Shown here piece after piece: positions 40,328 to 41,022 of a stretch of DNA of 64,000 nt; position 1 is the first letter of the stretch, and every line of letters begins with the position of its first letter. The position numbers and the translations under genes are program-made. The stretch is taken from assembly GCF_056746865.1 (NCBI RefSeq), contig NZ_CM163382.1; one strand, written 5' to 3'. The notes beneath the pieces are model-generated. The model was not told the origin of the DNA. It ran no database searches and saw only the letters and a program-made list of their open reading frames with translations.

Positions 40328-40889
40328 CGGGTAAAACTCATTAGGATTATCAGAATTCGGACAATGCATTGCAAAAATGACATTCAAAGAGAGATGTGTG
40401 CAGGCGCTTAGCCGCGAGGGGCATAGCGAAGCCATACAGAAAGCACTAGCATTCAGAACTCCTGTGAAAGCGGCATAGTGGCCGCCTGTGCAGGAGTTTT
40501 GCTATGACCCGTATCGTGCTGACCGTTGCCACCCTATGATGCGATTAAAAAAACTCATCGTCGCGCCGATGATTGACGACAATGCTAGCGGATGATGTCA
40601 GGGGTGTTCCGGAAGGAATTCCTTGTTTCCCGAACTGTTACCCACAAAATTATAACGACGAGCAAGTAAAGACCGGTTGGTGGCAGCATTGAACGGTCTG
40701 TGATGGATGTTAAATTTCACCTTAAATCCTGGTGCTGTTAGGATGCTGACGTTTTTCGGGTACACCATTCAGATTATGCAAATAAAGATCCAATCAAAAA
40801 ATAAATATCCCTGAATATAATATATTCATAGCACCCATAACTCATCTTGGGCGATAACTAAACCATTTTTGAGTAATAAATGAAACAAC

Positions 40890-40965
40890 TGCAACGCTCT
40901 TATTATTTCTGGAAAACGCCTCGCAAAAACAAAACAACATGCAAAAATCCGCTTTTTTTAAATGA
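40890..40965 (+). repeat. Upstream repeat module, copy 1 (before yiiE)
   Basis: AACTGCAAC...TCTGGAAAACGCCTCGCAAAAA...GCTTT...TTAAA shared with copy 2. Confidence 0.55.
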
Positions 40966-41022
40966 TTTTCCGGCGTAATTTTCGCACATACATTAATGAG
41001 TAATATATGTAAGGTGGTGGTA

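What the first reader, a model, noticed from the sequence alone, without database searches (positions are those of the whole stretch)
40328..40995. ~660 bp ORF-free stretch downstream of the island gene with gene-like composition
Between the stop of the CX5R gene and yiiE there is no ORF of 60 codons or more on the plus strand. The central part (about 40380-40760) has higher GC than the AT-rich gene beside it and contains codon-like runs and an inverted repeat (AACTCCTG...CAGGAGTT at about 40460-40500). This could be a decayed gene remnant marking the original island boundary, or an untranslated RNA.
Basis: seen in the sequence. Interest (0 to 1): 0.35.

Follow-up and report, generated by a model that had tools for sequence, protein, structure and literature searches.

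The report
Wreck of two small genes
The ORF-free stretch between the island gene and yiiE is ordinary gene-decay debris: the tail of an antitoxin gene, an intact leader hairpin, and the broken ends of two small uncharacterised genes joined by a 396-bp deletion.

Summary
There is no + strand ORF of 60 codons or more. G+C rises to 0.49 at 40380-40760, against 0.39 in the island gene. The inverted repeat is real (40457-40464 / 40491-40498). Lack of ORFs alone is not unusual: 77% of shuffles show it too.

The window is E. coli, fabY(yiiD)-yiiE. Other E. coli strains and Klebsiella carry, at this spot, hydrolase(-) / RelE-like toxin / NadS antitoxin / orfA (70 aa) / orfB (92-95 aa) / RHH antitoxin. 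The window keeps only fragments:
- a nadS 3'-end-like piece (40394-40435);
- the conserved orfA leader hairpin (40454-40501), which covers orfA's ribosome-binding site and start codon;
- about 18 frameshifted codons of orfA (40504-40556);
- a 396-bp deletion;
- the last 34 codons of orfB, with two stops, two indels and a lost stop codon (40559-40662);
- a spacer and the yiiE upstream region.

orfA and orfB are real genes (dN/dS 0.11 and 0.24). They sit side by side in at least ten loci in several unrelated contexts. Every source calls them hypothetical.

732 of 5,426 complete E. coli genomes share this junction. The "decayed gene remnant" reading is right. The "untranslated RNA" reading holds only in that the repeat is a conserved leader hairpin. 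Interest is low. The intact hairpin-orfA-orfB cassette elsewhere is the more interesting lead.

The parts
40328..40393 (+). 3' flank of the 617-aa CX5R island gene; AT-rich and island-specific
   Evidence: It travels with the island gene (98.5% identical to L003 over window 37001-40498; absent from L001 and L002). It has no significant similarity to nadS (178 of 500 shuffles score as well). G+C is 0.364.
40394..40435 (+). nadS 3'-end-like remnant: the last ~10 codons, the stop and a short downstream hairpin, all degenerate
   Evidence: It aligns with the 3' end of nadS in L001 and L003 (ATGTG-TGCAGGCGCTTAGCCGCGAGGGGCAT against ATGTGCTGCAGGCACTTAACCGTTAGAGGCAT). No other part of nadS is present.
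40394..40498 (+). ~105-bp segment that occurs twice as a direct repeat in strains carrying both the island gene and the hydrolase-toxin-nadS module; the window has a single, hybrid copy
   Evidence: In L003 copy 1 is at 4064-4166 (it abuts the hydrolase stop) and copy 2 is at 5879-5983 (nadS 3' end). The left part of the window copy is copy-1-like. Its right flank continues as the copy-2 flank.
40454..40501 (+). Two-tier leader hairpin of orfA: outer stem 40454-40466/40489-40501, inner stem 40470-40474/40481-40485. The 3' arm carries the Shine-Dalgarno AGGAG (40492-40496). CAU 40450-40452 pairs with the AUG at 40504-40506
   Evidence: Fold energy -30.2 kcal/mol, z = -4.1. An equivalent hairpin with the SD in its 3' arm precedes orfA in every locus examined. 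Covariance model R1 finds one copy in the 64-kb window (68.5 bits) and none in loci that lack orfA. Pairs formed: 75.9% of cells against 36-49% when partners are slid; 5 pairs change on both sides.
40504..40556 (+). 5' remnant of orfA (codons 1 to about 18 of 70), with a 1-bp deletion in codon 4 and then stop codons
   Evidence: Aligned to the intact orfA of ATCC 25922 (L005 3010-3222). tblastn detects RADRCHPMMRLKK against RAERRLHMARLKK.
40556..40559 (.). Junction of a ~396-bp deletion that removed orfA codons ~19-70, the orfA-orfB spacer and orfB codons 1-58
   Evidence: L003 6040-6435 has no counterpart in the window or in L001. L001 (nadS-type) and O157:H7 (L007) share the same deletion.
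40559..40662 (+). 3' remnant of orfB (codons 59-92), with two in-frame stops, a +1 and a -2 indel, and a lost stop codon
   Evidence: tblastn gives RRADD*RQC*RMMSG plus PEGIPCFPNCYPQNY against orfB residues 59-90, E = 3e-7 across two frames. Nucleotide alignment. The K-12-type deletion endpoint lies at 40626, inside this remnant.
40663..40880 (.). AT-rich spacer downstream of orfB, present in nearly all E. coli including K-12-like strains; no counterpart in the Klebsiella locus
   Evidence: No annotated feature in any record seen and no Rfam match.
40884..40967 (+). yiiE upstream region, an 84-bp repeat also found upstream of yiiF (41323-41405); presumably a duplicated promoter/operator
   Evidence: 78.6% identity over 84 bp. 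yiiE and yiiF are paralogous RHH proteins.

Best explanation
The stretch is non-functional debris from an older gene array at the fabY(yiiD)-yiiE/fdhE locus of E. coli. It is not a gene and not a free-standing RNA gene.

The fuller state survives in other E. coli strains and in Klebsiella. It reads: fabY / alpha-beta hydrolase (-) / RelE-like toxin / NadS HTH antitoxin / hairpin-orfA (70 aa) / orfB (92-95 aa) / RHH (VapB-like) antitoxin(s) / fdhE.

In the window lineage three things happened. The events are shown; their order is inferred.
(i) An AT-rich island carrying the 617-aa CX5R gene came to lie directly after the fabY stop codon.
(ii) The hydrolase-toxin-nadS module was lost. A single hybrid copy of a ~105-bp sequence remains. 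That sequence flanks the module as a direct repeat in strains that have both the island and the module. The most likely route is homologous recombination between the two repeat copies.
(iii) A ~396-bp deletion fused the first ~18 codons of orfA to the last 34 codons of orfB, and both remnants then gathered stops and frameshifts.

The raised G+C and the "codon-like" look come from these former coding sequences. The inverted repeat is the conserved leader hairpin of orfA. In intact loci it buries orfA's Shine-Dalgarno sequence and AUG. From that I infer that it controls orfA translation. In the window the hairpin is intact but has nothing left to regulate. At most it may now end or stabilise the CX5R gene's transcript (inferred). 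The last ~140 bp is the yiiE promoter/operator region.
For: Locus identity and alternative contents.

Direct repeat and hybrid single copy.

orfA and orfB remnants with lesions.

orfA and orfB are real genes:
- Both are conserved in length and synteny between E. coli and Klebsiella, with dN/dS 0.11 and 0.24 where dS exceeds 1.
- A HMMER scan of 1.8 billion representatives finds about 15 full-length orfB homologues at 36-58% identity.
- orfA matches phrog_4499 at E = 1e-13 to 1e-15.
- orfA lies 41-66 bp upstream of orfB in at least ten loci outside E. coli. Eight are in non-syntenic or unidentified contexts, one of them a 994-bp contig with no context. Two (L009, L022) are in the syntenic Klebsiella locus.

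Hairpin: it is present upstream of every orfA with the SD in its 3' arm, and the stems differ compatibly between lineages. It is absent from the four orfB loci that lack orfA.

Frequency: 732 of 5,426 complete genomes share the window-type junction, including O157:H7.

Divergence: window against O157:H7 is 5-6.5% in the remnants, against 1-4% in fabY, the CX5R gene, yiiE and fdhE. yiiF, at 95.1% identity, is as diverged as the remnants.
Against: No expression data were available, so residual function cannot be excluded. Examples would be a transcript ending at or starting near the hairpin, or a long yiiE 5' UTR.

The order of events is not settled. The window arrangement could be primary, with the island replacing hydrolase-toxin-nadS in one step, and the two-repeat arrangement of L003 derived later by recombination between chromosome types.

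The nadS-like piece is only about 81% identical to nadS over ~32 bp. It may have come in with the island from another lineage rather than decayed in place.

Formal covariation support for the hairpin is modest. The core of the inner stem is invariant, there are only 15 sequences, several are close relatives, and the tested alignment was fitted to the model.

Divergence of the remnants is only slightly above that of the flanks.
Confidence: 0.85

Rival explanations
1. The stretch still works as RNA. The hairpin terminates or stabilises the CX5R gene's mRNA, and/or the region is a long regulated 5' leader of yiiE, or it gives rise to an sRNA derived from the old orfA leader. This can be true alongside the decay explanation.
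For: The hairpin is intact and even stronger than in intact loci (-30.2 against -22 to -26 kcal/mol). It lies ~127 nt after the CX5R stop and is followed by UUUU. The segment 40626-40995 is retained in almost all E. coli, including K-12-like strains.
Against: Rfam has no match at E <= 1. The terminator scan does not call the hairpin; it has only 4 U's and a compound stem. No + strand promoter-like site was found in 40200-41100. In Klebsiella the same hairpin has no U tract (GAGTGATGA), so termination is not its conserved role. The hairpin is tied to orfA, which is destroyed here.
Confidence: 0.2
2. The window arrangement is primary, not a secondary deletion. The island replaced the hydrolase-toxin-nadS module in one illegitimate event that cut inside nadS. 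Strains with both the island and the module (the L003 type) arose later by recombination between the two chromosome types.
For: The nadS-like piece next to the island is much more diverged (~81%) than the rest of the repeat (~97%). The copy-1/hydrolase junction in L003 (GGAGTT|ACCTTCC) shares only the microhomology AGTTACC with the L001 fabY-hydrolase spacer. The window and L001 share the 396-bp deletion, but L003 does not.
Against: A single homologous crossover between two ~105-bp direct repeats of ~89% identity is the simpler route from an L003-like state to the window state. Klebsiella shows that hydrolase-toxin-nadS-orfA-orfB is the older content of the locus.
Confidence: 0.35
3. One of the short ORFs in the stretch encodes a functional micro-protein. 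Candidates are 40377-40478 (33 aa), 40488-40595 (35 aa), 40573-40692 (39 aa) and the - strand 56-aa ORF at 40598-40768.
For: The ORFs exist. The 39-aa ORF keeps the conserved C-terminal orfB motif PEGIPCFPNCYPQ.
Against: They are fragments of three different reading frames of former genes and are broken at different places in related strains. None is annotated in any of the genomes inspected. None has its own Shine-Dalgarno sequence except the dead orfA start.
Confidence: 0.03

Closest known systems
Unannotated pseudogene remnants and deletion scars in variable E. coli chromosomal regions
   Same: Truncated, frameshifted pieces of genes that are intact at the same position in other strains. 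Alternative gene contents occur between conserved flanks (fabY and yiiE/fdhE). A direct repeat flanks the segment that is missing here.
   Different: The destroyed genes (orfA, orfB) have no name or family in Pfam, NCBIfam or PADLOC. PGAP does not annotate the remnants as pseudogenes.
HigB/RelE-like toxin with NadS (Xre-HTH, MqsA-like) antitoxin, a type II toxin-antitoxin module
   Same: The neighbouring module in other strains has a toxin-first order, a 103-aa RelE-like protein (weak PF06296 match) and a 96-aa protein that reaches the NCBIfam NadS cut-off.
   Different: The window keeps only a degenerate copy of about the last 10 codons of nadS. There is no toxin and no antitoxin.
Leader hairpins that hide a ribosome-binding site (translational control, as in many small toxin or phage genes)
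   Same: The 3' arm holds the GGAG and the AUG is paired. The arrangement is conserved upstream of orfA across diverged loci, with compatible stem changes.
   Different: No trigger (protein, sRNA, temperature or upstream translation) is known. In the window the regulated gene is dead.
phrog_4499 (phage protein family of unknown function)
   Same: Intact orfA matches it at E = 1e-13 to 1e-15 over residues 3-67.
   Different: The function is unknown. The window holds only ~18 frameshifted codons of it.

Membership tests
Pseudogene remnant of orfB (92-98-aa MSxFNTRKDR...YYW family) | Sequence similarity to intact family members at the syntenic position | tested here: met
   Window 40559-40662 aligns to orfB codons 59-92 (78-79% nucleotide identity; tblastn E = 3e-7 across two frames). 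The position is the same, between the hairpin and yiiE.
Pseudogene remnant of orfB (92-98-aa MSxFNTRKDR...YYW family) | Disabling lesions: truncation, stops and frameshifts | tested here: met
   Codons 1-58 are deleted. There are two in-frame stops, +1 and -2 indels, and the stop codon is lost.
Pseudogene remnant of orfA (70-aa, phrog_4499-like) | Similarity to the intact gene, plus disabling lesions | tested here: met
   Window 40504-40556 matches orfA nt 1-57 at 83-100% identity, with a 1-bp deletion in codon 4. The rest of the gene is deleted. The protein-level signal alone is weak (E = 0.07), so the call rests on the nucleotide alignment and synteny.
Intrinsic (Rho-independent) terminator | G+C-rich stem-loop directly followed by a run of at least 5 U | tested here: inconclusive
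   The stem is strong, but only UUUU follows it and the scan tool does not call it. The U tract is absent from the Klebsiella orthologue.
Known RNA family (Rfam 15) | Covariance-model match | tested here: not met
   No match at E <= 1 in window 40000-41500, either strand.
Dispersed repeat (REP/BIME, MITE, IS end) | Many copies per genome, or terminal inverted repeats with a transposase | tested here: not met
   The median is 1 place per genome and the maximum is 2, all at this locus type. There is one R1 hit in the 64-kb window. No plasmid copies were found apart from mislabelled chromosomes.
Type II toxin-antitoxin module (RelE-like / NadS) | Adjacent intact toxin and antitoxin genes | tested here: not met
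   Only a ~42-bp nadS 3'-end-like piece is present. There is no similarity to the toxin or to the rest of nadS.
Known anti-phage defence systems (PADLOC-DB 2.0) | Profile match of intact orfA or orfB | tested here: not met
   No match at E <= 0.1 for orfA, orfB or their homologues.

The most novel reading that the evidence does not exclude
The debris is the wreck of an undescribed mobile three-part cassette: a leader hairpin that hides the ribosome-binding site, then orfA (70 aa, very basic, with invariant HH...CxC..C, possibly binding zinc or nucleic acid), then orfB (76-98 aa, basic, ending in YYW/YYY). The cassette is found intact in variable regions of Enterobacteriaceae. Its neighbours there include toxin-antitoxin modules, dnd phosphorothioation genes, HNH/McrA-like nucleases, reverse transcriptases and an SNF2 helicase. 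It could be a new addiction-like or phage-defence-related pair whose first gene is kept translationally silent.
Probability: 0.2. Interest if true: 0.5.

Novelty: new member of a known kind. Interest (0 to 1): 0.22.

Why it matters
For the window itself it matters little. It explains a long "empty" intergenic region as unannotated pseudogene debris, and it corrects some automatic annotation. The "cobalt ABC transporter ATP-binding protein" of strain YZLc1-3 is a frameshifted orfA. orfA is not annotated in ATCC 25922. The remnants are not flagged as pseudogenes.

It also shows that the fabY-fdhE interval is a graveyard of small modules: RelE/NadS, orfA/orfB and VapBC. That suggests YiiE and YiiF of K-12 are orphan VapB-type antitoxins.

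The more useful by-product is a concrete, testable object elsewhere. The conserved hairpin-orfA-orfB cassette is carried intact by many E. coli B2 strains (such as ATCC 25922), and by Klebsiella and Salmonella, and nobody has characterised it.

Tried and rejected
- Rfam scan of 40000-41500 at E <= 1: nothing.
- Promoter and terminator consensus scans: no + strand promoter, and the hairpin is not called as a terminator.
- Pfam, NCBIfam and PADLOC for orfA, orfB and the CX5R protein: no hits. The only family hit is phrog_4499, of unknown function, for orfA.
- PDB sequence searches with orfA and orfB profiles: nothing meaningful.
- AlphaFold2 models of orfB and orfA: low confidence (pLDDT 49.9 and 57.2). 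I therefore ran no fold searches.
- Word-indexed protein search with the fused 181-aa reading: only near-identical or chimeric fragments. The HMMER scan of all representatives was needed to find the family.
- Plasmid collection: only chromosomes mislabelled as plasmids.
- Viral contig scan: one locus.
- Literature searches for yiiE/yiiF and NadS: nothing relevant to this locus.
- I first read L003's "orf73 + orf92" as one 183-codon gene with an internal stop. I rejected this once ATCC 25922 and Klebsiella showed two separate conserved genes and an A7/A8 frameshift in L003.
- I first read the hairpin as the nadS terminator. I rejected this as its conserved role because it accompanies orfA in loci without nadS and lacks a U tract in Klebsiella.
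- Extension of the nadS remnant upstream of 40394: not significant (178 of 500 shuffles).

Full report
**Where we are.** The window is E. coli chromosome and is 100% identical to strain 118UI over the tested part. The local order is:
- yihY, dtd, fabY (= yiiD, 37108-38097);
- a 617-aa AT-rich gene with a CX5R motif (38474-40327);
- the finding (40328-40995);
- yiiE (annotated start 41023), yiiF (41460-41702), fdhE (-).

**Observation check.** The stretch has no + strand ORF longer than 39 aa. That alone means little, because 77% of shuffles of the same 668 bases also lack a 60-codon ORF. The composition step is real. G+C is 0.49 for 40380-40760 and 0.555 for 40394-40503, against 0.39 for the island gene and 0.36 on either side. 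It is the core of a two-tier hairpin of -30.2 kcal/mol, z = -4.1.

**What other genomes have at this position.** A search of 5,426 complete E. coli genomes shows that the interval between fabY and yiiE comes in several forms.
- Form a: hydrolase(-) / 103-aa RelE-like protein / NadS antitoxin / ~600 bp / yiiE (e.g. CFSAN061769, L001).
- Form b: the same, but with ~1 kb after nadS that holds a 92-aa hypothetical gene (e.g. ATCC 25922, L005). About 1,270 genomes carry most of this long-form DNA.
- Form c: island gene plus hydrolase-toxin-nadS plus the long form (YZLc1-3, L003).
- Form d: island gene only, which is the window type. It is shared by 732 genomes, including O157:H7.
- Form e: the K-12-like form. 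Here window 38578-40625 is missing, which leaves the first ~104 bp of the island gene as an annotated partial pseudogene (L002).

**The two lost genes.** An alignment of E. coli long-form DNA with a syntenic locus from Klebsiella (L009, L012, L022) shows two conserved small genes between nadS and the RHH gene.
- orfA is 70 aa: MTRNRAERRHH...CxCSCWMCGH... PGAP does not annotate it in ATCC 25922.
- orfB is 92-95 aa: MSTFNTRKDR...DPEG..W.PD.YP..YYY.

Several results show that both genes are real.
- Between E. coli and Klebsiella they keep their lengths. dN/dS is 0.11 for orfA and 0.24 for orfB, while synonymous sites are saturated.
- A HMMER scan of 1.8 billion representative proteins finds about 15 full-length orfB homologues at 36-58% identity.
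- orfA matches phrog_4499, of unknown function, at E = 1e-13 to 1e-15.
- orfA lies 41-66 bp upstream of orfB in at least ten loci outside E. coli. Two of them (L009, L022) are in the syntenic Klebsiella locus. The others are next to dndB/dndC and an HNH/McrA-like gene in Salmonella; in an IMG/VR contig beside an SNF2 helicase; in Edwardsiella, Atlantibacter, Citrobacter and Kosakonia; and on a 994-bp contig with no context.
- All public sources call both proteins "hypothetical".

The 73-aa "cobalt ABC transporter ATP-binding protein" annotated in YZLc1-3 is orfA with an A7-for-A8 frameshift.

**Anatomy of the finding**.

| Window coordinates | Content |
|---|---|
| 40328-40393 | Island-specific 3' flank of the CX5R gene |
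| 40394-40435 | Degenerate copy of the last ~10 codons and stop of nadS |
| 40436-40503 | orfA leader, with the hairpin |
| 40504-40556 | orfA codons 1 to ~18, with a 1-bp deletion in codon 4 |
| 40556/40559 | Junction of a ~396-bp deletion (L003 6040-6435) |
| 40559-40662 | orfB codons 59-92, with two in-frame stops, a +1 and a -2 indel and a lost stop codon |
| 40663-40880 | AT-rich spacer, found in nearly all E. coli but not in Klebsiella |
| 40884-40967 | 84-bp yiiE upstream repeat, also found before yiiF |

Protein-level similarity therefore exists. For orfB it is RRADD*RQC*RMMSG plus PEGIPCFPNCYPQNY, E = 3e-7. Short-form nadS strains and O157:H7 share the 396-bp deletion, so it predates the split of those lineages.

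**How the module was lost.** In strains that have both the island and the hydrolase-toxin-nadS module, a ~105-bp sequence occurs on both sides of the module as a direct repeat (L003 4064-4166 and 5879-5983). It consists of the nadS tail plus the orfA leader hairpin. The window has one copy. Its left part is of the copy-1 type, and its right flank continues as the copy-2 flank. A single homologous crossover between the repeats would give exactly this, and I consider it the most likely route. The alternative is that the island replaced the module in one step and the two-repeat form arose later. I cannot exclude that: the nadS-like piece is unusually diverged, and the window and L003 differ in the 396-bp deletion.

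**The inverted repeat.** I first took it for the nadS terminator. That is not its conserved role.
- An equivalent two-tier hairpin precedes orfA in every locus examined, including loci with no nadS.
- Its 3' arm always contains the Shine-Dalgarno GGAG or GAGG, 6-8 nt before the AUG.
- In the window the AUG itself pairs with an upstream CAU.
- The stems differ between lineages in compatible ways. The inner stems are GCGGCA/TGCCGC, GGGGCA/TGCCCC, AGGGGC/GCCCCT and GCGCGGTT/GGCCGCGC. The outer stems are AACTC/GAGTT, AATAC/GTATT, CCTCATA/TATGAGG and CCATTCGG/CCGAATGG.
- A covariance model built from 12 leaders finds one copy in the 64-kb window. It also finds the orphan copy 1 in L003, and nothing in the four orfB loci that lack orfA.

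The pair counts are supportive but modest. 75.9% of cells are paired, against 36-49% with slid partners. Five pairs change on both sides. The covariation score is reached by 2 of 500 shuffles. An unfitted MAFFT alignment gives similar figures.

I infer that the hairpin controls orfA translation by hiding its ribosome-binding site. This was not tested. In the window the hairpin is intact but orfA is dead. It may incidentally act on the 3' end of the CX5R transcript, but only four U's follow it and the scan tool does not call it a terminator.

**Known families.** Rfam gives no match. The sequence is not a dispersed repeat, with at most two places per genome, all at this locus. It is not plasmid-borne. 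It matches no PADLOC defence protein. AlphaFold2 models of orfA and orfB were of too low confidence to search with.

**Verdict.** "Untranslated RNA" holds only in that the repeat is a conserved cis-acting leader hairpin. The finding is ordinary gene decay in a variable region, and 13% of complete E. coli genomes carry it. The most novel reading still open is that the intact hairpin-orfA-orfB unit found elsewhere is an undescribed mobile two-gene cassette, perhaps addiction- or defence-related. The evidence for that is only guilt by association.

Noticed in passing
window 41700-41789: A ~30-codon 5' remnant of a PIN-domain VapC toxin gene lies directly after yiiF. The window reads KKIWLFDIDILIDFLSVKIEAKQALAA*; the Klebsiella VapC reads KGPALFDTNILIDLFSGRVEAKQALEAY. 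Klebsiella has an intact RHH + PIN pair here. YiiF, and its paralogue YiiE, therefore look like orphan VapB-type antitoxins.
   Followed up: partly
window 40884-40967 and 41323-41405: An 84-bp direct repeat (78.6% identity) lies upstream of yiiE and of yiiF. It looks like a tandem duplication of a promoter/operator-plus-RHH-gene unit. ATCC 25922 lacks yiiF altogether.
   Followed up: partly
window 38474-40327: The 617-aa island gene is one uninterrupted ORF. PGAP nonetheless splits it into a "partial hypothetical protein" and a "transposase" in 118UI and YZLc1-3, and into two hypothetical proteins in O157:H7. It has no Pfam, NCBIfam or PADLOC match. From memory, its GCKSAKDRT motif resembles the CX5R site of the SopB/IpgD phosphoinositide phosphatases.
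   Followed up: partly
window 38474-38577 joined to 40626 (L002 2886-3002): K-12-like strains are not "island-free". They keep the island's left flank and the first ~104 bp of the CX5R gene, fused by a 2,048-bp deletion to the last ~12 codons (~37 bp) of the orfB remnant.
   Followed up: yes
L005 3010-3222 and 3284-3562; L009 3727-3939 and 4001-4288; L013, L018-L023: An intact hairpin-orfA-orfB cassette occurs in E. coli B2-type strains, Klebsiella, Salmonella (beside dndB/C and an HNH/McrA-like gene), Edwardsiella, Atlantibacter, Citrobacter and Kosakonia. orfA has invariant R3, R5, R8, R9, H10, H11, C43, C45 and C48. Both proteins are very basic. Every source calls them hypothetical.
   Followed up: partly
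L003 5989-6210: The RefSeq protein WP_106475282.1, named "cobalt ABC transporter ATP-binding protein" (73 aa), is a frameshifted orfA (A7 instead of A8), so the name is spurious.
   Followed up: yes
L001 1724-1786: A perfect palindrome, CTGAAAAGGTTTTCA-ATC-TGAAAACCTTTTCAG, lies between the convergent fabY and hydrolase genes in strains without the island. It is probably a bidirectional terminator. In the window the island begins directly after the fabY stop and replaces it.
   Followed up: no
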